Assembly (NCBI GenBank): GCA_021324445.1
Contig: JAJPJC010000335.1
Span: forward strand, 1 to 18,210
DNA from: Isosphaeraceae bacterium
GTDB taxonomy: Bacteria > Planctomycetota > Planctomycetia > Isosphaerales > Isosphaeraceae
DNA: 18,210 nucleotides
Direction of reading: 5' to 3'
Below, in pieces: positions 341 through 14,278 of the stretch. Position 1 is the first letter of the stretch; each line of letters opens with the position of its first letter. The notes below the pieces were generated by a model, which was not told the origin of the DNA, ran no database searches, and was given only the letters and a program-made list of their open reading frames with translations. A program made the translations under genes and the position numbers.

Positions 341-856
341 ATGGACCCCGCGCGCAGTGAACCGCCGGTGGAAACCCGCGCTGCTCCCCAAACGGAGGCC
401 GCTCCGGGGGCCGAACCAGCCGCCCCGGCGGCGCCGGAGCCGGCCCCGGCGGGGGTGGTCTTGGGCCGCGACTTGATCTTCACAGCCAAGGTGCGCGGCA
501 CGGCGGCCGAGCTGGGCTACCGGATGCTGGTGGCCAGCGAGATTGGCATGGCCCGGATGCGCATACAGAAATGCCGGCCGCGGGTGGTCTTCATCGACCT
601 GACGGCGCACGACCTGGCCGCCCCGGCGGCCCTGGCCGCCTACCGGCAGGCCACGGGTCCCGACACATGGTTCGTCGCTGTCGGACCGCATGTCCAGGCC
701 GATGTCCTGGAAGCGGCCAGGACGGCCGGCTGCCAGGTGGTCTTGCCCCGCAGCAAATTCGCCGCCGAATTGCCCGCCCTGATGCGGCACTATTTCAGCC
801 AGCCACCAGGAGAGAGTCGTCAGTCGTCCGGGGTCGGAGGTCAGGAAGAATCGTGA
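341..856 (+). CDS. CheY-like receiver (REC) domain protein, possibly atypical; Pro/Ala-rich N-terminal extension
   Basis: Seen: the ORF has high GC3. The core VVLGRDLIF...VVFIDLTAHDL...FVAVGPH...VVLPRSKF...LMRHYF matches the spacing of the CheY beta1/D57/T87/K109 elements. The phospho-acceptor Asp (FIDLT) is present. The first acidic-pocket position is RD, not DD, and the T87 position is Gly. The start is uncertain: the PA-rich first ~40 aa may not be translated, and an alternative GTG lies near 455. Confidence 0.55.
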   Translation: MDPARSEPPVETRAAPQTEAAPGAEPAAPAAPEPAPAGVVLGRDLIFTAKVRGTAAELGYRMLVASEIGMARMRIQKCRPRVVFIDLTAHDLAAPAALAAYRQATGPDTWFVAVGPHVQADVLEAARTAGCQVVLPRSKFAAELPALMRHYFSQPPGESRQSSGVGGQEES

Positions 857-920
857 CCAAAGAACGGCCCTGTCATGGTCTAGGTCTGTTCTGACCACGG
901 CCCACGGCCCACTGCGCAGA

Positions 921-1412: not shown

Positions 1413-2500
1413 CGCTGACCTCGCTTCTTCTCGATGCGGATGGCCGATCGAAAGCGACTCTCAATTTCGCGGTACCATCCCACTCACGCTGTCTCTTCGT
1501 CGTCCTGACCCGTCCCGCCGGGGATGTGAGCCTCGAATCGAAGACCCGCAGACCCCCCTCGCCCCTCCGCCGATTCGCGGGAGAACCGAACCCAACCAAG
1601 ATGGTTTTCGAATTACATCGAGAACTCCCGACGAAAAATGATCGGAAACCGCGACCTCTTGGACCCGGTCGCCGAGAACTCGGGAAAAACCTCACGGTCC
1701 GCATTTTGAAGAGAATCCGAGAAAAATCGACCAAAATCGGACCGATCCAGGAGCTTTGGTGGTTACCAACGGCGAAGGTTTACAATTCTATTGTTAGCAA
1801 AAGCCTTCAGACTGTCAAGTTACGACGGAACCCAAGGGTTGTGATACCGCATCGAGAATTCCGACCTCCCGGCCGATCATGCTGATCCCACCCGCGACTC
1901 CGCGCCTCACCCCTCCGATCCACCTCGACCGTTGAACTGCACCCGATCATGCACTCGATGTAAACCTGTTTGCAGCGCGACCACCTGGATGCGGGGAAGC
2001 CGGCTCTGGGAAAAACGCGGGCCGGACTTAAAAAAGAAGCTATCAGCCAGATTATGCGGCACAACCTCCCACACCTGCCGAACGTCACAGCACAGGTGCA
2101 TGCAATCAACTATGCATAGAATTGACATCATCTCGGAAAAAAATGCGCATGGCCGAGCGACTCTCTTGCGGTGGGCTCTCCACCGACTATACTCATAGCC
2201 TGAGTTCATCCGCTGGTGATTGGATCGTCCCTTGGCCGATTGCACAGATCCCTGATACCGCTCAGGGCTCGACCCGCAGCGGCGACTCGGATTCGGTTCC
2301 CAGACCCCTCACGGGTGCCGTCGGCGCAATCCTGGGTCGACCCACGATTGCATGGATTAGCCGTAAGCAGGGATGGTCGATGAGGGGAGATCGTAGCTGA
2401 TCCTCAGCACAGGACCTGATTGGTTATCGGAAATGAGGGTTGGACCTCCAGCCTCAGGGCGGACGAGTGAATTCGTCACCCGCAGGGACGGTGGCGGCGC
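1413..2500. other. ~1.1 kb low-GC non-coding island (no ORF with host codon signature)
   Basis: Seen: a hand count of a 60-nt sample (1601-1660) gives ~47% GC, against ~70% in flanking genes. A-runs (gaaaaatga, ggaaaaaaatg, ttaaaaaagaag) occur nowhere else in the window. All ORFs in the track here are Arg/Cys-rich with poor GC3. A TTGACA hexamer lies at 2123-2128 and a TAGAAT at 2117-2122. Confidence 0.5.
1581..1861 (+). repeat. Five direct copies of GAGAAYYC(S) motif (iteron/operator-like array); two copies extended to ATCGAGAAYTCCGAC
   Basis: Seen: GAGAACCG at 1581, GAGAACTC at 1620, GAGAACTC at 1674, GAGAATCC at 1711 and GAGAATTC at 1854. All are on the same strand, spaced 39/54/37/143 bp, each followed by an A-run or GATC. 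The extended 12-mers ATCGAGAACTCC (1616) and ATCGAGAATTCC (1851) are quasi-palindromic. A 7-bp inverted repeat CGAATCG (1533-1539) / CGATTCG (1570-1576) lies just 5' of the array. Confidence 0.45.
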
Positions 2501-2530
2501 GGATCGCTCGTGGACTTTCAGGGAGAAGCG

Positions 2531-3145
2531 ATGAAGCAGTCCCAAGATTTCCCGCAGGCTGACTCGACGCAGACCTACCCTCGTGGGCGGATGCACCAGC
2601 GGGTCGTCCCTGCCTATCGGGTCGGTGAGCTGTTCCATCCGGACCACCGCCTGTGGCCGGAGGGGGCCCAATTCAACTGCGGTCCGGGGCATTACGAGCT
2701 GGTGTTGTTCCATGCCGAGATCGGCGCGGATCTGGTGGAGGCCGTCCGCCGCGGCCCGGCCGAGTTCGCGCTGATCGTGGAACCCCAGGTGATCGTGCTG
2801 GCGTATCGCTTCGGGGAGTTGATCCCCTGGCAGGACATCCCGTACTCGTGGCACTTGCAGCCGGCAGCGCGGCAAGTGATCCCCTCCGTGGTGCCCTCGT
2901 CCGAGGCCCGGTCCTTGCTCTGGATCACGATGGTCGGAGCCCGGGATGGGATCATCCACGCCCAGCGGGGAATGACCTTGTCTCCCTCGTTCACCCGCAC
3001 GCTCCACACCGCCATCCGGGATCAGGCCGCGCGGAGTTTCGATCCGGAGGAATGTACCGGGGCGATCTCGAGCATCTACCTGGAATATCCCCACACGGTC
3101 GACCGCCTCTCGATTGCCGCGGCGCGGACCATGGGCAATGCCTGA
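2531..3145 (+). CDS. hypothetical protein (204 aa), no recognised domain
   Basis: Seen: uniform high GC3. A Shine-Dalgarno GGGAGAAG sits 6 nt before ATG 2531 (the track ORF begins at 2510; the internal ATG with the SD is preferred). There is no signal peptide and no motif I can assign. The stop is TGA at 3143-3145. Confidence 0.6.
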   Translation: MKQSQDFPQADSTQTYPRGRMHQRVVPAYRVGELFHPDHRLWPEGAQFNCGPGHYELVLFHAEIGADLVEAVRRGPAEFALIVEPQVIVLAYRFGELIPWQDIPYSWHLQPAARQVIPSVVPSSEARSLLWITMVGARDGIIHAQRGMTLSPSFTRTLHTAIRDQAARSFDPEECTGAISSIYLEYPHTVDRLSIAAARTMGNA

Positions 3146-3147
3146 GC

Positions 3148-3272
3148 GAGTACGCAGGACGCAGGACGCAATGAAGACTTGAGCTCATGCCGACCGGCTC
3201 TTGAGCATTCCTACCAAGGACCTTGTGGCTTCCCCCAACGGCGTATTGCCTACTGCGTACTGCGTCCTGCCG
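3148..3272. repeat. Inverted pair of tandem-heptamer motif (K-ACGCAG)n flanking a 67-bp spacer between convergent stops
   Basis: Seen: 3148-3180 reads gagTACGCAGGACGCAGGACGCAAtgaagactt. The reverse complement of 3246-3272 reads cgGCAGGACGCAGTACGCAGTAGGCAA. The left copy begins 3 nt after the TGA of 2531..3145. The right copy overlaps the last 7 codons and the TAG of the GT4 gene. Confidence 0.55.
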
Positions 3273-4437
3273 TGAGGCCATAGCCGAGCACCCCGGCCCA
3301 GAGTCGCTCGTAGGCCGCGACGGTGCTCTCGATCGAGAATTCGCGCTCGACGCGAAGGCGGGCCGCCGCGCCGTAGCGGCGGCAGCGCTCGGGGTCATCC
3401 ACCGCTTCGAGGAGGGCCTGGCTGAGCGCGGCGGGGTCGCGGGGTGGGACGAGCCAGCCGGTCTGGCCGGGAACGACCAGGTCCTCGGTTCCCTCGACGG
3501 CCGTGGCGACGACGGGCCGTCGTGCGGCCATGGCCTCGAGCACGACGTTGGGCATGCCTTCCCAGTGCGAGGCGAGCACCAGCAGGTCGGACGCCTTGAG
3601 CAGGCCGGGCATGTCCGCCCGCGGGCCCAGCCAGTGGACCCGGTCGCGCAGGGTGGGCCGGTGCTGGAGCTGCTCCCGCAGCCAGCCGCGCTGGGGACCG
3701 TCGCCGGCCATCACCAGGTGCCATCCGGGGCGGCGGGCGATCACCCGCTCGGCGGCCTCCAGCAGGTCGGGCAGTCCTTTCTGCGGATCGAGCCGGCCGG
3801 CGTAGAGGACCAGGTGTGCGTCGACCGGAACACCGATGGCCGCGCGCGGGACCGGCTCCGCGAGATCATACGGCGCGGGGTCGATCCCATTCGGGATCAC
3901 GGTCAGCCGCGCCGGGTCGAGCCCGGCGACATCCCGGCTGAAGTTCCGCACCCCCTGGGAGACGCAGACCGATCCGGTCGACAGCCGCGCCGTCAGGCGA
4001 TCCAGGACCCGGTGCCAGCGCTTCTGACGCTCGGCGACCCGCAAGCCGCCCAGGACCCACGGCCGGCCCGCCCAGGGCGCCGCCAGCCGCGACGCCAGGT
4101 TGGCGTGGAACAGGAAGCTCTGGACCAGCTCCGGGTCGAACCGCCGCAACCGGACCGCCAGCCGCGCAATGGCCGCCATGGGGTTCCTCCGGCCGACGCC
4201 CAGGCATTCGCAGGGAATGCCGGCACTGCGGATGACCGCGGCCAGGGCGCCCGGACCCCCCAGGCAGAAGACACCCGGGCGCCATCGCGCCGGATCCAGC
4301 CGGGTTGCCAGCGCGGTCAAGGCCCGCTCGGCACCCCCGACATCCAGATCGGTGATCACCAGCGCCAGGCCGACCGGACGGCCCGGCCAGGGACGAGAGG
4401 GAGCCGCGGCCAGGCGTTCGCGGAGGCTCGGTTGCAC
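3250..4437 (-). CDS. GT4-family (GT-B fold) glycosyltransferase
   Basis: Seen: the N-terminal sugar-donor region LALVITDLDVGGAERAL, plus the C-terminal conserved region EGMPNVVLEAMAARRPVVATAVEGTEDLV (an E-x7-E-like motif) and YAGRLDPQKG, match GT4 hallmarks. Confidence 0.85.
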   Translation of the reverse strand: MQPSLRERLAAAPSRPWPGRPVGLALVITDLDVGGAERALTALATRLDPARWRPGVFCLGGPGALAAVIRSAGIPCECLGVGRRNPMAAIARLAVRLRRFDPELVQSFLFHANLASRLAAPWAGRPWVLGGLRVAERQKRWHRVLDRLTARLSTGSVCVSQGVRNFSRDVAGLDPARLTVIPNGIDPAPYDLAEPVPRAAIGVPVDAHLVLYAGRLDPQKGLPDLLEAAERVIARRPGWHLVMAGDGPQRGWLREQLQHRPTLRDRVHWLGPRADMPGLLKASDLLVLASHWEGMPNVVLEAMAARRPVVATAVEGTEDLVVPGQTGWLVPPRDPAALSQALLEAVDDPERCRRYGAAARLRVEREFSIESTVAAYERLWAGVLGYGLTAGRSTQ

Positions 4438-4983: not shown

Positions 4984-6810
4984 TCACCTGGAGAAGCTCA
5001 GTCCCGGGTCGTCGGGGCCGTCGCCGGCCACCCGGAACGTCATGTGTTCGGCGTCCTTCCAGCTCAGGCGACCGACCAGCGGGGGGCCCTTGTCCTGGAC
5101 CAGAGTCAAGATGCCCGCCCCGTAGGTCGAGGTCCCGGTGAAGTGCTGCGCCTTGCCTTTCTGGTTGACCTGCCAGGTGAACTGGCCCCCGGGCTGGATG
5201 GTCAAGCCGATCTCGGTGTCCGCGGTCGGATGAGCCTTCCAGGTCCCGGCCATCGACGCGCCCTGGGGCGGGGTCGTGTCGACCGGGGCAGGCTCGGGAG
5301 CGGTGGCCGTCGTGGTCTGGTCCTTGGGCACATCGAGCTGGCGGAGCAACTTCGCCGACAGCGTATCGCTGGGCATCAGCGCCACCACCTGCTTGAGCAC
5401 GCTCACGGCCGCATCGATGTAGCCTTCGGTCAGGTAGTGGTAGCTGAGAACGAACCGGGCCGCGGCCGAGTTGGGGTTGGCCGCGCAAGAGTCTTCCAGC
5501 GCGCGGAGCTGCGCGGTGTAGACGTTGACGTCGGGGTAGAGGCTCACCAGCGTCGGCCAGTCCCAGCCGGGTCCGATCGAGAGCACGGCATAAAGGGTTG
5601 CGGCCGCGGCCTCATACTGCTTCAGGGCGAACTGGCAGAGCGCACGGAACTCGTGCAGGGCCGTGTCGTTGGGCAGCTTGGCCAGGGCGTCGTTGGCCTG
5701 CGCCAGGGCCTGCGTGTAGTTGCCTTGCTTGAACGAATCCCGCGCGGCGTCGAATGTGGCGATCGCGGGGTCGGCGACCGCATCGCCCGCGGGCGCAGTG
5801 GTGGTGTCGATCGGCTGCGCGTAGTCGTAGGGCACGGCAGCCGCGGATTGATCGACGAAGGCCACCGGGGCGGCGTAGTAGGGGTTGGAGTACGGCAGGT
5901 AGCCCATCCCATACAGCGCCGACCCGTAGCCCCAGGACGCCAGGCCGTAACCCAGGCCCATCCCCAGGCCCAGGCCCATCCCCCAGCCCCAGCCGCCCCA
6001 GTAGGGTCCACGCCAGGCCCAGGCGGCGTTGTTGTGTCCGTTCCAGTAGCCGTGGACCCAGCCGGCGTGATAGGCCCCGTAGGCGTTGTTCCCGTAGGCG
6101 CGATACCCGGCGGCGCCGCCGCGAGATCCGACGGCCGCTCCCCCGGCACCGACCGCCGCGCGGCCGCGCTCGCCGCCGGCGACGACGCCCCCGGGACCGG
6201 CTGCGAATCCACCGCGCGAGCCCGCGACGGCGGTCCCGCGCGGTCCGGCGGCGGCGGCCACGTTCGAGCGACCACCCACCGCGTTTCCAGCCGGCCCCAC
6301 GGCACCCCCGGCCCGGCCCACGTCCGTGAAGGTCCGCCCACCCGCCGTCGTCACCTGGGCCCCGGCGACCCCGCGACCGGCCATCCCGCCGCCGGGTCCG
6401 ACCACTCCACGCCCCGCGGCGCCGTAATCGATCGTCCCGCCCCGTGCGGTGGTGTCGGAGCCGGTCCGCGCTCCCGTGGCCATGCCGCCGCCGGCGTACG
6501 GGTTATATCCCCGAAACTCGCCACCCCCCCGATCGAACGTCCCGGCCGAGCTGAAGGAGGGCGTCCGGCCGAACGAGGAGGCGCCGCCGTAACCGCCGCG
6601 AAAGCCCTCGGCGCCGCCGGAGCGCATGCCGCCCATCTCGCCCCCGCGGAAGCCGCCCATCTCGCCCCCGCGGAAGCCCCCAGAACCGCCGGCTCGGACG
6701 CCGCCGCCGCCACGGAAGCCGCCTCCGCCAAACCCGCGCGCCAGGGCCGACCCACCGGAGAGAGCCACCGTCAGGCACGTCAAGACAAGGATCGTCCAGT
6801 TGCGAGTCAT
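4984..6810 (-). CDS. secreted protein: signal peptide, ~280-aa Gly/Arg/Ala low-complexity region with FRGG/RGG repeats and a Trp/Tyr/Gly-rich segment, TPR-like helical region, C-terminal beta-rich domain
   Basis: Seen: MTRNWTILVLTCLTVALSGGSALA signal peptide. Repeats GGFRGGEMGGFRGGEMGGMRSGG. The segment YWNGHNNAAWAWRGPYWGGWGWGMGLGLGMGLGYG. A TPR-like region QGNYTQALAQANDALAKLPNDTALHEFRALCQFALKQYEAAAATLYAVLSI...LSYHYLTEGYIDAAVSVLKQVVALMP. A C-terminal domain GTWKAHP...FTWQV...LTLVQDKG. The ATG at 6808-6810 overlaps the TGA of the upstream gene (ATGA). Confidence 0.8.
   Translation of the reverse strand: MTRNWTILVLTCLTVALSGGSALARGFGGGGFRGGGGVRAGGSGGFRGGEMGGFRGGEMGGMRSGGAEGFRGGYGGASSFGRTPSFSSAGTFDRGGGEFRGYNPYAGGGMATGARTGSDTTARGGTIDYGAAGRGVVGPGGGMAGRGVAGAQVTTAGGRTFTDVGRAGGAVGPAGNAVGGRSNVAAAAGPRGTAVAGSRGGFAAGPGGVVAGGERGRAAVGAGGAAVGSRGGAAGYRAYGNNAYGAYHAGWVHGYWNGHNNAAWAWRGPYWGGWGWGMGLGLGMGLGYGLASWGYGSALYGMGYLPYSNPYYAAPVAFVDQSAAAVPYDYAQPIDTTTAPAGDAVADPAIATFDAARDSFKQGNYTQALAQANDALAKLPNDTALHEFRALCQFALKQYEAAAATLYAVLSIGPGWDWPTLVSLYPDVNVYTAQLRALEDSCAANPNSAAARFVLSYHYLTEGYIDAAVSVLKQVVALMPSDTLSAKLLRQLDVPKDQTTTATAPEPAPVDTTPPQGASMAGTWKAHPTADTEIGLTIQPGGQFTWQVNQKGKAQHFTGTSTYGAGILTLVQDKGPPLVGRLSWKDAEHMTFRVAGDGPDDPGLSFSR
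6628..6675 (-). repeat. perfect 24-bp tandem repeat x2 (encodes EMGGFRGG x2) plus a degenerate third copy upstream
   Basis: Seen: GCCGCCCATCTCGCCCCCGCGGAA at 6628-6651 and again at 6652-6675, in frame within the low-complexity region. Confidence 0.7.
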
Positions 6811-11831: not shown

Positions 11832-13436
11832 CTACGGGCCGGGCACGGTCCGGATTGAGCCGCCCCGACCCGGCGGGTTCACCCTGGGCTGCGGCTCGCG
11901 GTGCCGGGCGCCGCCACGACCGTCCTTGAGGAAGGAAAGGAGCTGGGCCTCGAGAGTGGCGTACGGCTGACCCAGGCGATCCTGGAGCGATCGGCCGGTC
12001 GTGCGCTTGATCCGCCCGCGGTAGGCGTCGCGGACATAGTCGAGGAAGCCGTCGCGATAGGTCCCCTGGCGGGCCTGCATCAAGAAGACGGTCAGGGCCA
12101 TGCCTTCCTGGTAACGGAGGTAAATGCCGGAATCGTCGCGCTTGAAGGCGTCCTCGCCGAGGGCGACGAACTGGGCCAGCGGGATCGCCCGGCCCTGGTC
12201 CACCAGGGCTTTGATCGCTTCGGCGATCCGGGGCCCGACCAGGCCCCCGACCTCGATCGAGCCGTCGGGCTGCGGCTCGACCGTCTCGAAGTAGGTGCCC
12301 AGCCCCTCGAAGACCCAGTAGTTGCCGTAGTTCTTGGTGTACTGATTGGGCCCAGCCATCTCGAAGAGGAGCTGATGCGAGACTTCGTGGTAGAGATTGG
12401 CCGTGACCGGGAGCTGCCCTCCGGGGTCGTGGAAGAAGTAGGCCGGTGCCCGGCCGCCCCGTCCGGGCCTGGGGGGGTCGTAAAAGCCGAGGCTTTGCGC
12501 GATCTCGGCCCCGTACCTGGGACTGAGGTGTTCCGCGTATTCGTCCTTGGACCCGAAATAGTAAACCAGATGGGGCTTCGACGTGGGCTCGCCCACCAGG
12601 GCCGGATCGCGGAACCGGCGGGCTAAGGGGAGGTTGTCACCGAGCAGATCCGCCATCAGGGCCGAGAACAGGTCGTGGAAGGCTTCCAGTCGGCGGCCGA
12701 AGCTGATCGCTTCGGCCAGGGGAAGATTGGTCTGGACCTCGAAGTGCTCGGTGAAGATCTGCCAGGGGGGTTTCCAACCGGCTCGGAGGCGGTCGGCATC
12801 CACGGCCGCCAGCCATCGCACCTTCTGGCCCCGGACCTGCGGCGCGGGCAGCTCGCCGCGATCCAGGTGTGGCAGCCAGTCGGACTTCACCCAGCCGAAG
12901 ACCGGATGATCGACCAACCCGTTCTGAAGTTGTCCCACGGCAAAGGGCCTGGCCCAGCCGCCGGCATGCGGCACGTACCCCAGCAGCCGGCGCGCCTCGG
13001 GGTGATCGGGCTGCCGCTCCAGGACCCCGCGCAGGCACCGGTCGGCCAGCGCGTACCGCGGCGGTTGCGCGTGGGCGGCCCGCTGGGCCAGCGCGAACAG
13101 CTCGGACGCAAACCGCCCCTGGATCGCCGCGAGCTGGGACCGCCACGCCGCCACTTCCCCCTTGGGACGGGGCCCGACCACATCCGGCAAGGGGACGAAC
13201 TGCGTCGGTCCATCCGGGGCCACCTCCCGGGGAAGCCGCCCGCGCACCTCCCGGGCCGCCTGCACATTCCCCGTCCCGGCCAGCCGGTCGGCCAGCTCGC
13301 TCAAGTCCGCCGCCTCGCTCGCCAGGATCGCCCGTCGGGAGGTTTCGAGCTCACGCGCAACCGCTTCGCCCGTCAGCGGCCGCGGAACCTGACCCACAAC
13401 CCCCAGCAACCCGACGAGACACCATGAGCAGGACAT
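11832..13436 (-). CDS. secreted HExxH zinc-metallopeptidase-like protein (gluzincin-like; resembles Planctomycete DUF1570 family)
   Basis: Seen: signal peptide MSCSWCLVGLLGVVGQVP. The motif HEVSH with Glu residues 9 and 28 residues downstream (LLFEMAG...WVFEGLGTYFE). SD AAGGGAG lies 6 nt upstream of ATG 13436. The track ORF extends to 13532, but the signal peptide and SD favour 13436. Confidence 0.75.
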   Translation of the reverse strand: MSCSWCLVGLLGVVGQVPRPLTGEAVARELETSRRAILASEAADLSELADRLAGTGNVQAAREVRGRLPREVAPDGPTQFVPLPDVVGPRPKGEVAAWRSQLAAIQGRFASELFALAQRAAHAQPPRYALADRCLRGVLERQPDHPEARRLLGYVPHAGGWARPFAVGQLQNGLVDHPVFGWVKSDWLPHLDRGELPAPQVRGQKVRWLAAVDADRLRAGWKPPWQIFTEHFEVQTNLPLAEAISFGRRLEAFHDLFSALMADLLGDNLPLARRFRDPALVGEPTSKPHLVYYFGSKDEYAEHLSPRYGAEIAQSLGFYDPPRPGRGGRAPAYFFHDPGGQLPVTANLYHEVSHQLLFEMAGPNQYTKNYGNYWVFEGLGTYFETVEPQPDGSIEVGGLVGPRIAEAIKALVDQGRAIPLAQFVALGEDAFKRDDSGIYLRYQEGMALTVFLMQARQGTYRDGFLDYVRDAYRGRIKRTTGRSLQDRLGQPYATLEAQLLSFLKDGRGGARHREPQPRVNPPGRGGSIRTVPGP

Positions 13437-13450
13437 CGCAGCTCCCTTGC

Positions 13451-13617
13451 GCGTACGCAGTACGCAGTGAAGACCGACCGAGAGCGAGGCAACACGGAGA
13501 GACACCCGGGAATGCGAGTTCCTCTGTTCCACTCCTATCGCCGATCGACGAGATCCTCAAGATCTTATTCGCCCGGCCCCGCTTCCAGAAGCTCTTCACT
13601 GCGGATTGCGTACGGCC
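13451..13617. repeat. Second inverted pair of the (K-ACGCAG)n...TGAAGA motif, flanking ~113 bp in the peptidase-gene leader/promoter region
   Basis: Seen: 13451-13480 reads GCGTACGCAGTACGCAGTGAAGACcgaccg. The reverse complement of 13594-13617 reads GGCCGTACGCAATCCGCAGTGAAGAG. The left copy sits at -15 to -44 from the peptidase start codon and abuts its SD. The same motif occurs at 3148-3180. Confidence 0.5.
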
Positions 13618-13723
13618 TGAATGATCTGGACGCCACCCGGAGATCGTCGCACAATGCAGGCCCTGGGTGGGGGTCGATCCCTGGGGCGGTCCGCGTTTGG
13701 CCCACGTATTGGAGGCGACGATC

Positions 13724-14278
13724 ATGGATGTCCCGCGCTCGCGCATTCCCACGGCGGTGGTGCTGCTGGCGGGTGTGGCTCTGGGGTGGCTGCTGGCGAG
13801 TTTCCGACTGGCCCCGGCTCGGGCCGGGGCCGGGGACCGGTCCGGCGAGAGCATCGTGGCGACCGGACCGGTGCTGGTACGCTTCGACGAAGGGGCCAAG
13901 GCGGCAATCCCGCTCGACGCCTTGTATTTCCTCGACTACAAGGGGGGCCGGCTGATCGCCACGGTCCCCGCGTTTCGCCAGACCGGTGCGGTACCGCACC
14001 TGATCGACACGTTCGCCGAGCGCGACCTGGCGGTCGACTTTCAGCTCAGACTGGAAAGCGGCCCGCGTCCCCACTTCCTGATGACCACCGGCTCCCTCGG
14101 CGCCTACAGCGCGGGCTGGGCTCCGCTTTATGTCTTGGAGACGACCACCAACCAACTGGGGATCTATCGAATGCAGACTTCCCAGACAGCCGGGACGATC
14201 TCGCGGCCTCGGCTCGACCTGGTCGAGCTGCGGTCCTACACCCGGCCGCTGAGTCCCGCGCCGCCGGCTTCTCCTTGA
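13724..14278 (+). CDS. hypothetical membrane-anchored protein (N-terminal TM helix, ~150-aa extracytoplasmic domain)
   Basis: Seen: SD GGAGG lies 8 nt upstream of ATG 13724. The TM segment is TAVVLLAGVALGWLLASF and the composition is balanced. The overlapping frame 13621..14481 is Arg/Gly/Pro-rich and rejected. Confidence 0.5.
   Translation: MDVPRSRIPTAVVLLAGVALGWLLASFRLAPARAGAGDRSGESIVATGPVLVRFDEGAKAAIPLDALYFLDYKGGRLIATVPAFRQTGAVPHLIDTFAERDLAVDFQLRLESGPRPHFLMTTGSLGAYSAGWAPLYVLETTTNQLGIYRMQTSQTAGTISRPRLDLVELRSYTRPLSPAPPASP

What the first reader, a model, noticed from the sequence alone, without database searches (positions are those of the whole stretch)
3148..3272. Inverted pair of tandem heptamer (T/G)ACGCAG repeats bracketing a 67-bp spacer between two convergent genes
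The left arm carries three consecutive heptamers (TACGCAG GACGCAG GACGCAA) followed by TGAAGAC. It starts 3 nt after a stop codon. The right arm, in reverse complement, carries GACGCAG TACGCAG TAGGCAA and overlaps the last codons of the GT4 gene. The arms could pair as a ~14-18-bp imperfect long-range stem, acting as a bidirectional terminator. Alternatively they could be two half-sites for a DNA-binding protein. The same motif family recurs 10 kb away at 13451-13617, again as an inverted pair. This argues for a dispersed repeat family (REP/BIME-like or MITE-like termini, or a shared regulator site) and against chance.
Basis: seen in the sequence. Interest (0 to 1): 0.6.

Follow-up and report, generated by a model that had tools for sequence, protein, structure and literature searches.

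The report
Heptamer-repeat hairpins between planctomycete genes
The finding is real: it is one of several long hairpin-forming elements in an Isosphaeraceae (planctomycete) genome whose two stem arms are inverted runs of 7-base repeats; related species keep such a hairpin at the same gene junctions but with different 7-base units, as in the poorly understood 'STRR' heptamer hairpins of cyanobacteria.

Summary
Element A (3150-3272) and element B (13452-13616) are inverted pairs of tandem (T/G)ACGCAG heptamers, mostly with an inner TGAAGAC/G unit. The core motif occurs 5 times against 0.12 expected.

The window is a whole contig of an Isosphaeraceae MAG. The exact motif is not a widely dispersed family.

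The architecture does recur. In about 150 kb from this and related genomes, period 7 is the only enriched repeat period that is not a multiple of three (12 arrays against about 1 expected). Almost all of these arrays lie in complementary inverted pairs.

At the orthologous 205-aa-gene/GT4 junction, relatives carry stop-to-stop hairpins built from TGGTCAT, TGGTCAG or TGGCAAG. The HAD-GT4 junction carries three further heptamer types. Element B's ortholog keeps its interior but shows compensatory changes in the arms.

This argues against fixed protein-binding half-sites and against a classical MITE or REP. It fits a structure-maintained hairpin like cyanobacterial STRR hairpins. My best guess for function is a transcript-end or RNA-stability element, bidirectional at locus A. 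That function is untested.

I rate it a new variant of a known kind, of moderate interest.

The parts
3150..3178 (+). Element A, left arm: G TACGCAG GACGCAG GACGCAA plus the inner unit TGAAGAC (3172-3178).
   Evidence: Pairs with 3243-3272 in the RNAfold structures. Arm duplex -31.9 kcal/mol on the + strand and -37.9 on the - strand.
3179..3242 (.). Element A, spacer. Contains an inner small hairpin (TTGAGC...GCTCTTGA, about 3179-3204) whose right half, CTCTTGA, resembles the inner unit of the other right arms.
   Evidence: Not alignable to the spacer of B or to the ortholog in L122.
3243..3272 (-). Element A, right arm (reverse complement CGGCAG GACGCAG TACGCAG TAGGCAA TAC). Encodes the non-conserved C-terminal tail TAGRSTQ and the stop codon (3250-3252) of GT4.
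   Evidence: The conserved GT4 C-terminus ends at ...AAYERLWAGVLGYGL. In each species the tail and stop codon come from that species' own heptamer arm or from its spacer.
2531..3145 (+). 204-aa conserved hypothetical gene, convergent with GT4. Its stop codon is at 3143-3145.
   Evidence: Exact product called on 9 contigs. More than 250 homologs, with no Pfam family.
3250..4437 (-). GT4-family glycosyltransferase gene.
   Evidence: Glycos_transf_1, E 1.9e-38; Glyco_transf_4, E 5e-18. Called as 395 aa.
13452..13474 (+). Element B, left arm: CG TACGCAG TACGCAG TGAAGAC. It starts 15 nt upstream of the DUF1570 start codon (13436, minus strand). The intervening sequence carries the SD-like AAGGGAG.
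13475..13591 (.). Element B, interior of 117 nt. Conserved with the ortholog L125 (for example CGAATAAGATCTTGAGGATCTCGTCGATCGGCGATAGGAGT).
13592..13616 (-). Element B, right arm (reverse complement GCCG TACGCAA TCCGCAG TGAAGAG).
   Evidence: Arm duplex -36.3 kcal/mol on the + strand and -31.9 on the - strand.
812..916 (.). Degenerate third pair between the convergent 171-aa gene (341-856, +) and the HTH gene (921-1412, -): AGTCGTC AGTCGTC ..GGTCGGAGGTCAGGAAGAAT ... GTTCTGACCACGGCCCACGGCCCAC. The ortholog in L122 (1780-1866) is a clean GGGTCAG TGGCCAG / TGACCA CTGACCC pair.
   Evidence: The window copy folds weakly (z -2.35); the L122 copy gives z -4.0.

Best explanation
Elements A and B are two members of a class of intergenic long hairpins. 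In this class each stem arm is a short tandem array of heptamers, and the two arrays lie in inverted orientation around a spacer of 25-135 nt. In planctomycetes of the family Isosphaeraceae this is the counterpart of the cyanobacterial STRR heptamer hairpins.

What is maintained is the stem, not its sequence. At a given gene junction the hairpin persists across species, while the heptamer unit and often the spacer are replaced or drift, and the two arms stay complementary.

At locus A the hairpin fills the gap between two convergent genes from stop codon to stop codon. Transcripts from either side must therefore end in it or read through it. The most likely role there is a bidirectional transcript-end element, acting as a U-tract-less terminator, a pause hairpin, or a barrier to 3' exonucleases. 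In tandem (intercistronic) and divergent (5'-UTR, as in B) settings, the same kind of hairpin would instead affect processing, stability or translation of the adjacent mRNA.

The co-variation of the arms is most simply explained by three processes. Replication slippage would homogenise units within an array. Hairpin-templated strand switching or gene conversion would copy changes between the arms, and occasionally between loci, which would explain why A and B share TACGCAG...TGAAGAC.

Shown: the anatomy, the pairing, the positional conservation with sequence turnover, and the period-7 enrichment. Inferred: action at the RNA level, the termination/stability function, and the slippage and template-switch mechanism.
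For: 1. Pairing.
- Searches give the whole-element folds. One search gives arm duplexes of 12-31 bp and -20 to -59 kcal/mol for all 12 pairs.

2. Same junction, different heptamer (205-aa gene -> <- GT4).
- Window: TACGCAG / GACGCAG.
- L122 (protein 85% identical): TGGTCAT x2 / AATGACT AATGACC, z -5.0.
- L123 (67%): TGGTCAG x7 + TGAAGAC / CTCTTGA CTGACCA x3, -98.4 kcal/mol, z -7.35.
- L124 (66%): TGGCAAG x2 / CTTGCCA x4 + GTCTTCA.
- Sources.
- The flanks of the window and L122 align closely, but the roughly 120 nt between the stop codons is unalignable.

3. The HAD->GT4 junction carries pairs in three species, each with a different unit.
- L124: TGGTCAT / TAGTCAT. L123: GGTGGCG / GGTGACG. L130: TAGTGGC.

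4. Element B against its ortholog L125.
- The interior and both arms are homologous. The arms differ by paired changes: GTACGCA...TGCGTAC in the window against GGAGGCA...GCCTCC in L125.

5. The cross-complementarity matrix of 12 left arms against 12 right arms is diagonal-dominant. Off-diagonal matches appear only between elements that share a heptamer class.

6. Period scan of 107 kb pooled from these genomes.
- Period 7 gives 12 exact arrays against 1.05 expected. It is the only enriched period that is not a multiple of three.
- 10 of 13 arrays sit in inverted pairs, and there are more.
- A random 16-mer finds a partner matching at 14 of 16 or better in only 0.75% of trials.

7. A third clean pair exists in the source species: TGTTCAG x3 ... 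CTGAACA x4 at L086 671-838.

8. Literature.
- 7-bp STRR repeats form hairpins between hupS and hupL and upstream of hoxW in Nostoc and Anabaena. Transcript stability, translational coupling or termination have been proposed as roles (PMC2670836).
- The Nostoc 7120 hupS-asr0689 spacer carries ttgtcag x3 and ccactgactactgac (PMC2408588, Table 3).
- The Nostoc trnL intron P6b stem is built from heptamer motifs, and one motif class has repeatedly been replaced by another (PMC4476775).
Against: - There is no transcript data, so the RNA-level function is entirely inferred.
- Neither element is followed by a T/U tract, and the consensus terminator scan found nothing.
- The loops are long (64-117 nt), unlike canonical intrinsic terminators.
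- Pairs occur in convergent, tandem and divergent contexts, so no single function fits all of them.
- G-U wobble asymmetry does not favour the transcribed strand. Three of four pairs in minus-strand tandem contexts pair better on the plus strand. Selection on RNA rather than DNA is therefore not demonstrated.
- Two relatives lack a heptamer hairpin at locus A. L129 has 29-30-nt tandem repeats there, and L130 has only a 10-nt gap. L126 lacks element B. The hairpin is therefore dispensable.
- Persistence at a junction could reflect mutational bias at pre-existing hairpins rather than selection.
- Only about 33 kb of the source species could be examined.
Confidence: 0.5

Rival explanations
1. Selfish or purely mutational hairpin repeats with no host function. 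Heptamer arrays arise and turn over by slippage and by quasi-palindrome template switching at any pre-existing intergenic hairpin. They are tolerated because they lie outside conserved coding sequence.
For: - They occur in every intergenic context: convergent, tandem and divergent.
- They are absent from some orthologous sites.
- There is no strand asymmetry in wobble pairs.
- The C-terminal tails they add to GT4 are not conserved.
- The function of the cyanobacterial counterparts is still unknown after decades (PMC2670836, PMC4679880).
Against: - The same two junctions keep a hairpin in 4 of 6 and 3 of 3 sampled genomes, despite complete sequence turnover.
- Stems are kept long and nearly perfect.
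- Elements A and B are invariant in 9 and 4 independent assemblies respectively, so they are not visibly unstable.
Confidence: 0.25
2. A non-autonomous mobile element (MITE- or REPIN-like) with heptamer-repeat terminal inverted repeats. It is mobilised in trans and inserts preferentially at gene ends.
For: - A and B, 10 kb apart, share 22-29-nt termini including the TGAAGAC/G inner unit.
- The TGAAGAS unit also flanks arrays in L123 and L124: 5 sites in arms against 0.2 expected, P about 2e-6, although the arm boundaries were drawn post hoc.
- At locus A the whole element is replaced between genomes whose flanks still align closely. This implies some copying or replacement between loci.
Against: - The interiors of A and B are unrelated.
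- No target-site duplication is visible.
- B's arms and interior are homologous to those of its ortholog and diverged by substitution, so B was not inserted recently.
- No plasmid matches.
- No transposase or RAYT-like gene was seen in the Pfam scan of the 10 largest ORFs of the window.
Confidence: 0.12
3. Arrays of binding sites for a sequence-specific protein. This could be a DNA-binding regulator recognising heptamer direct repeats, with the two inverted arrays looping the DNA, or an RNA-binding protein with one protomer per heptamer.
For: - Heptamer direct repeats are bound by some regulators and by cold-shock-domain proteins (discussed in PMC4679880).
- A protein partner has been postulated for Nostoc heptamer repeats (bioRxiv 10.1101/2022.06.06.494920).
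- Element B lies in a divergent promoter region.
Against: - The unit differs between orthologous sites and between neighbouring loci of one genome. L124 has TGGCAAG and TGGTCAT/TAGTCAT 1 kb apart; L123 has TGGTCAG and GGTGGCG.
- The arms co-vary, which points to pairing rather than recognition of a fixed sequence.
- Element A lies between two stop codons, where no promoter is expected.
Confidence: 0.05

Closest known systems
Cyanobacterial STRR (short tandemly repeated repetitive) heptamer sequences and the hairpins they form, for example the hupS-hupL spacer, upstream of hoxW, and the hupS-asr0689 spacer in Nostoc/Anabaena
   Same: - Tandem 7-nt units in intergenic DNA, often as two arrays in opposite orientation that can form a long hairpin (PMC2670836; PMC2408588 Table 3: ttgtcag x3 and ccactgactactgac).
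- Placed near gene ends or between cistrons.
- Several unit types occur per genome.
- Units in the relatives (TGGTCAG, TGGTCAT, TAGTCAT) are nearly the same as the Nostoc units. TGGTCAT is a rotation of STRR2 TTGGTCA; the STRR2 unit is quoted from my memory of Mazel et al. 1990.
- The function is unknown, with the same proposals on the table: stability, translational coupling, termination.
   Different: - Different phylum (Planctomycetota, Isosphaeraceae) and a 67% GC genome.
- The window's unit (T/G)ACGCAG is GC-rich, and I have not seen it described.
- An inner TGAAGAC/G unit recurs at the loop-proximal end of many arms.
- Copy number per genome could not be measured.
Heptamer-built P6b stem-loop of the Nostoc tRNA-Leu(UAA) group I intron. 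A related case is the STRR-extended helix in cyanobacterial RNase P RNA (Vioque 1997), which I know by title only, from the reference list of PMC4046671.
   Same: - A stem whose two strands are made of complementary heptamer repeats.
- Length changes occur in 7-nt steps on both sides.
- At one orthologous position, one repeat motif class has been repeatedly replaced by another while the stem is kept (PMC4476775).
- This is the same evolutionary pattern seen here at the 205-aa/GT4 and HAD/GT4 junctions.
   Different: Those stems are parts of known structured RNAs. The stems here are free-standing intergenic hairpins that overlap the 3' ends of protein-coding genes.
REP/BIME and REPIN elements of proteobacteria
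   Same: - Intergenic, hairpin-forming, and often located between convergent genes.
- Known to stabilise upstream mRNA and to attenuate transcription (established knowledge).
- The functional analogy is close.
   Different: - A REP is a roughly 35-nt imperfect palindrome present in hundreds of near-identical copies and linked to RAYT transposases.
- Here each arm is a direct tandem array and is not self-complementary.
- Copies share architecture, not sequence.
- No RAYT gene was seen.
TAACTGA heptamer direct repeats of Beggiatoaceae, cyanobacteria and Bacteroidetes (PMC4679880)
   Same: Abundant intergenic tandem heptamers of unknown origin, spread across distant phyla, and often abutting start or stop codons.
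   Different: Those are almost always single direct arrays upstream of start codons (169 direct sets against 1 inverted). The arrays here are nearly always in inverted pairs.
Intrinsic (Rho-independent) bidirectional terminators
   Same: A GC-rich stem placed between convergent genes.
   Different: There is no U/T tract on either side. The loop is 64 nt or longer, not 3-8 nt, and the stem overlaps coding sequence.

Membership tests
STRR-type heptamer repeats | Tandem repeats with a 7-nt unit | tested here: met
   A has 3 units per arm and B has 2 per arm. Period 7 is enriched 12 against 1.05 in pooled related DNA.
STRR-type heptamer repeats | Two arrays in inverted orientation able to form a hairpin in intergenic DNA | tested here: met
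STRR-type heptamer repeats | Many dispersed copies per genome (of the order of 100 in Nostocales; figure from memory) | tested here: inconclusive
   About 33 kb of the source species holds 3 clean pairs and 1 degenerate pair. The whole MAG could not be fetched. The exact TACGCAG...TGAAGA end was found at only one locus in the metagenome scan.
STRR-type heptamer repeats | Canonical units (STRR1 CCCCAGT, STRR2 TTGGTCA, STRR3 CAACAGT; from memory) in a cyanobacterial host | tested here: not met
   The host is an Isosphaeraceae MAG. The window's unit is (T/G)ACGCAG. Only relatives carry TGGTCAT, a rotation of TTGGTCA.
MITE | Terminal inverted repeats flanked by a target-site duplication | tested here: not met
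   Inverted termini are present, but there is no direct duplication. The flanks are GAGCGA / GTGAGG for A and CTTGCG / CCTGAA for B.
MITE | Copies in one genome share the internal sequence | tested here: not met
   The interiors of A and B are not alignable.
MITE | Presence/absence (empty sites) between close relatives | tested here: inconclusive
   B is homologous in L125 and absent in the more distant L126. The A site is occupied by different hairpins in L122, L123 and L124, by 30-nt repeats in L129, and by nothing in L130.
REP/BIME/REPIN | Each unit is itself an imperfect palindrome of about 20-40 nt | tested here: not met
   The arms are direct tandem arrays. In the folds each arm pairs only with the other arm.
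REP/BIME/REPIN | Hundreds of near-identical copies and an associated RAYT (IS200/IS605-like) gene | tested here: inconclusive
   There were no extra copies in the metagenome scan. No such domain appeared among the 10 largest ORFs of the window.
Intrinsic terminator | A GC-rich stem with a short loop followed by a U tract | tested here: not met
   The scan found 0 terminator-like sites in 2900-3500 and in 13300-13850. The loops are 64 and 117 nt.
Intrinsic terminator | Transcript 3' ends map at the hairpin | not testable with these tools
   No RNA data were available.
Known Rfam RNA families | Match to a curated covariance model | tested here: not met
   No hit at the gathering threshold over the window, and none at E<=1 over either element.

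The most novel reading that the evidence does not exclude
The heptamer arms may not be made by ordinary slippage. They could be written or homogenised by a dedicated templated process. Possibilities include an RNA- or DNA-templated repeat-adding or repeat-converting activity that acts at hairpins, or very small mobile 'arm' units such as the SDR elements proposed for Nostoc.

Such a process would explain three observations:
- Unlinked loci in one genome share the same unit and the same inner TGAAGAC/G unit.
- Orthologous loci in sister genomes carry different units.
- Nearly the same units (TGGTCAG, TGGTCAT, TAGTCAT) appear in Isosphaeraceae, Nostocales and, as single arrays, in Streptomyces.

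If true, this would be an undescribed genome-writing mechanism shared across phyla.
Probability: 0.07. Interest if true: 0.9.

Novelty: new variant of a known kind. Interest (0 to 1): 0.55.

Why it matters
Tandem heptamer repeats have been known in cyanobacteria since 1990 and in Beggiatoaceae since 2015. Neither their origin nor their function is understood.

A second, distant, high-GC phylum now shows the same inverted-array hairpin architecture. It occurs at orthologous gene junctions, the repeat unit is completely replaced between species, and the arms change in a compensatory way. Two consequences follow:
- The stem, not the sequence, is what persists.
- There is now a comparative system (many Isosphaeraceae MAGs and several cultured genera) in which function and turnover mechanism can be tested.

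There are also practical points for annotation:
- These hairpins supply the stop codons and the variable C-terminal tails of flanking genes.
- They are probably the transcript-end signals in genomes where U-tract terminators are not found.
- Terminator predictors tuned to short loops will miss them.

Tried and rejected
1. Genome-wide count of the motif. All were single hits in unrelated taxa, and the two planctomycete hits I read were chance matches. The source genome was not among them, so the scan says nothing about copy number in this organism.

2. Metagenome scan with ACGCAGKACGCARTGAAGA. It gave 27 hits, of which only L120 (the same locus A) was real.

3. Extending the source genome. Look-ups are allowed only for window proteins. 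They added about 15 kb and one further pair. Two closer relatives had no DNA available.

4. Rfam. There were no matches at the gathering threshold or at E<=1. There are no tRNA or tmRNA genes.

5. Consensus promoter and terminator scans found nothing.

6. Using G-U wobble asymmetry to decide which strand, or RNA against DNA, is under selection. There was no consistent bias.

7. Looking for slippage polymorphism among independent assemblies of the same species. There was none.

8. Isosphaera pallida plasmid pISOP01. It has only a direct GGAGTGA/G array near coordinate 1 and no inverted pairs.

9. BLAST of A and B against plasmids gave no match.

10. Literature search for the same feature in Planctomycetes found nothing. 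The Vioque 1997 paper was not held. The canonical STRR unit sequences could not be verified in the held library and are quoted from memory.

11. The attC, CRISPR and IS-end ideas were considered from the sequence and dropped. There is no matching core site, no repeat-spacer array and no transposase.
Full report
**1. The observation**

Element A:
- The left arm (3150-3178) reads G TACGCAG GACGCAG GACGCAA TGAAGAC. It begins 5 nt after the TGA stop (3143-3145) of a 204-aa gene.
- The right arm (3243-3272) reads, in reverse complement, CGGCAG GACGCAG TACGCAG TAGGCAA TAC. It encodes the last seven codons and the TAG stop (3250-3252) of a GT4 glycosyltransferase.

Element B:
- The left arm (13452-13474) reads CG TACGCAG TACGCAG TGAAGAC.
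- The right arm (13592-13616) reads, in reverse complement, GCCG TACGCAA TCCGCAG TGAAGAG.
- It is the longest inverted repeat in the window.

The core ACGCAGKACGCA occurs 5 times against 0.12 expected. Both elements fold into long hairpins on either strand, with z-scores from -2.3 to -4.7.

One contextual point needs correcting. A lies between convergent genes. B lies between divergent genes, 15 nt upstream of the DUF1570 gene's start codon, and the SD-like AAGGGAG sits in those 15 nt.

**2. Source**

The window is an entire 18,210-nt contig of an Isosphaeraceae MAG. Its T2SSE protein is HZW30974.1, named 'Isosphaeraceae bacterium', and a DUF1570 domain is present. The same organism turns up in several soil metagenome assemblies. 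Element A is base-for-base identical in 9 of these assemblies, and element B in 4.

**3. Is it a dispersed sequence family?**

It is not demonstrably one.
- The metagenome scan gave 27 hits, of which only this same locus A is genuine.
- The interiors of A and B cannot be aligned.
- There is no target-site duplication.
- Rfam has no match.
- Plasmid BLAST has no match.

**4. What relatives show**

I found homologs of the two flanking proteins and fetched their contigs.

*Junction of the 205-aa gene and GT4 (convergent).* The same architecture is present at this orthologous junction, but with other heptamers:

| Locus | Protein identity to window | Left arm | Right arm | Fold |
|---|---|---|---|---|
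| L122 | 85% | C TGGTCAT TGGTCAT T | AATGACT AATGACC AG | -70.8 kcal/mol, z -5.0 |
| L123 | 67% | (TGGTCAG)5 TGTTCGG TGGTCAG TGAAGAC | CTCTTGA (CTGACCA)3 CTGATCA | -98.4 kcal/mol, z -7.35 |
| L124 | 66% | (TGGCAAG)2 GAAAAGAGAC | GTCTTCA (CTTGCCA)4 | z -3.4 |

- In each species the conserved GT4 C-terminus ends at ...AAYERLW-x-(V/I)LG.... The remaining tail comes from that species' own arm, and the stop codon comes from the arm or, in L124, from the spacer.
- The coding flanks of the window and L122 align closely. The roughly 120 nt between the stop codons cannot be aligned at all.
- Two more distant genomes differ. L129 has 29-30-nt tandem repeats there, and L130 has only a 10-nt gap.

*Junction of the HAD gene and GT4 (tandem).* Three species carry an inverted heptamer pair here, with three different units:
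- L124: TGGTCAT / TAGTCAT (z -7.5).
- L123: GGTGGCG / GGTGACG.
- L130: TAGTGGC.

*Element B.* The ortholog L125 (85%) is homologous across the interior and both arms. The arms differ by paired changes: GTACGCA...TGCGTAC in the window against GGAGGCA...GCCTCC in L125. The more distant L126 lacks the element.

*Other pairs.*
- The source species has a third clean pair about 1.2 kb left of the window, at L086 671-838: TGTTCAG x3 CGGAAGAT ... CTGAACA x4.
- The window has a degenerate pair at 812-916. Its L122 ortholog is a clean GGGTCAG / TGGCCAG pair.

**5. Statistics of the class**

- In 107 kb pooled from these genomes, exact period-7 arrays number 12 against 1.05 expected. Period 7 is the only enriched period that is not a multiple of three; periods 6, 9 and 12 reflect coding repeats.
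- Ten of 13 arrays lie in inverted pairs, and further pairs appeared in added loci.
- A random 16-mer finds a partner matching at 14 of 16 or better within 300 nt in 0.75% of trials.
- A matrix of 12 left arms against 12 right arms is diagonal-dominant. Cross-matches occur only between elements that share a unit class, for example winA with winB.
- Arm duplexes are 12-31 bp, with energies of -20 to -59 kcal/mol.
- The unit TGAAGAC/G sits at the loop-proximal end of 5 arms in three genomes, against 0.2 expected (P about 2e-6). The arm boundaries were drawn post hoc, so this is only a lead.

**6. Interpretation**

- A sequence-specific protein site is unlikely. The unit differs between orthologous sites, and between loci 1 kb apart in one genome, while the two arms always match each other.
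- A classical MITE or REP is unlikely. The interiors are unrelated, there is no duplication, the arms are not self-palindromic, and B diverged in place.
- The data fit a hairpin whose stem is maintained while its sequence turns over.
- At locus A the hairpin runs from stop codon to stop codon between convergent genes. The most likely role is a bidirectional transcript-end element: a terminator or pause hairpin without a U tract, or a barrier to 3' exonucleases. This is consistent with the report that high-GC species have short U tracts and long terminator stems (PMC13613805).
- In tandem contexts, and in the 5'-UTR context of B, the effect would be on processing, stability or translation.
- Within-array homogeneity suggests slippage. 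Arm co-variation suggests hairpin-templated switching or gene conversion.
- The identity of the ends of A and B, combined with a TGGTCAK-type hairpin at locus A in relatives, implies that arm sequence has been copied between loci at least once. That mechanism is not explained.

*Caveats.*
- There are no RNA data.
- No U tracts are present.
- G-U asymmetry does not favour the sense strand.
- Some orthologous sites lack the hairpin.
- Only about 33 kb of the source species was available.
- A non-functional, mutation-driven origin remains a serious rival.

**7. Comparison with what is known**

The closest known kind is the cyanobacterial STRR heptamer repeat.
- 7-bp repeats form hairpins between hupS and hupL and upstream of hoxW. 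Proposed roles are transcript stability, translational coupling or termination (PMC2670836).
- The Nostoc 7120 hupS-asr0689 spacer carries ttgtcag x3 together with ccactgactactgac. By my reading these are TTGTCAG and TAGTCAG/TGGTCAG units on opposite strands about 85 nt apart (PMC2408588, Table 3).
- The Nostoc trnL intron P6b stem is built from heptamer motifs, and one motif class has repeatedly replaced the other (PMC4476775). This is the same evolutionary behaviour as seen here.
- TAACTGA heptamer repeats in Beggiatoaceae, cyanobacteria and Bacteroidetes are almost always single direct arrays (PMC4679880).

My searches of the held literature found no description of such hairpins in Planctomycetes. 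This rests on the held library only.

The differences from STRRs are:
- the phylum;
- the GC-rich (T/G)ACGCAG unit;
- the recurrent inner TGAAGAC/G unit;
- the stop-to-stop placement.

**8. Verdict**

This is a real feature. It is a new variant of a known but unexplained kind, and it is moderately interesting. Its main value is as a comparative handle on the heptamer-repeat problem.

Noticed in passing
window 1413-2530: A gap of about 1.1 kb with no coding signal lies between the HTH gene and the 204-aa gene. There are stops in all six frames and GC3 is only 0.52-0.61. The gap is also present in relatives. Within it, a 72-nt patch (about 2188-2259) is 93% identical to L122 and partly conserved in L129. 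This could be a promoter/leader or an unannotated small RNA. There is no Rfam or tRNA hit.
   Followed up: partly
L124 10625-11075: Several small hairpins with a C-UGAA-G loop lie in the long spacer upstream of the heptamer pair: ccacccggaCTGAAGtccggtgg, ccactgggtCTGAAGacccgtgg, ggcCTGAAGccc. The motif CTGAAG/TGAAG also appears in the 14-mer repeat of L129 (GGCTGAAGGATGAG) and resembles the inner TGAAGAC unit of the heptamer arms.
   Followed up: no
L124 13460-13580; L126 15740-15787: REP-like palindromes GTCAGGCTGGAAAGCCTGAC occur in inverted pairs in related genomes. One copy starts with GTAG. This is a second, different intergenic repeat class.
   Followed up: no
L129 10640-10850: At the orthologous 205-aa/GT4 junction this genome has 4-5 tandem copies of a 29-30-nt unit (gtcgatcgccggacggagccggctcctcca) instead of heptamer arms. 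Each copy holds the palindrome GGAGCCGGCTCC.
   Followed up: no
L127 1498-1530; L128 1500-1560 (Streptomyces and Streptantibioticus linear plasmids): Single direct (CTGACCA)n arrays, the same unit as in L123. In L128 the array lies just after a stop codon. In this orientation the unit puts TGA in all three frames. No inverted partner was seen.
   Followed up: partly
L132 1-4870 versus L086 1-1824 (about 146 nt left of window position 1): Two assemblies of the same species are identical to the window up to this point and completely different beyond it. This is either a strain-level rearrangement or a chimeric contig. No heptamer array lies at the breakpoint.
   Followed up: partly
L131 (Isosphaera pallida plasmid pISOP01) 6-62: A direct array of GGAGTGA/GGAGTGG heptamers sits at the start of the plasmid record. 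It may be iteron-like. There is no inverted partner.
   Followed up: no
window 5939-5999: A period-6/12 repeat (CCCAGGCCCATC...) lies inside the TPR protein gene on the minus strand. It is a coding low-complexity repeat and is unrelated to the finding.
   Followed up: no
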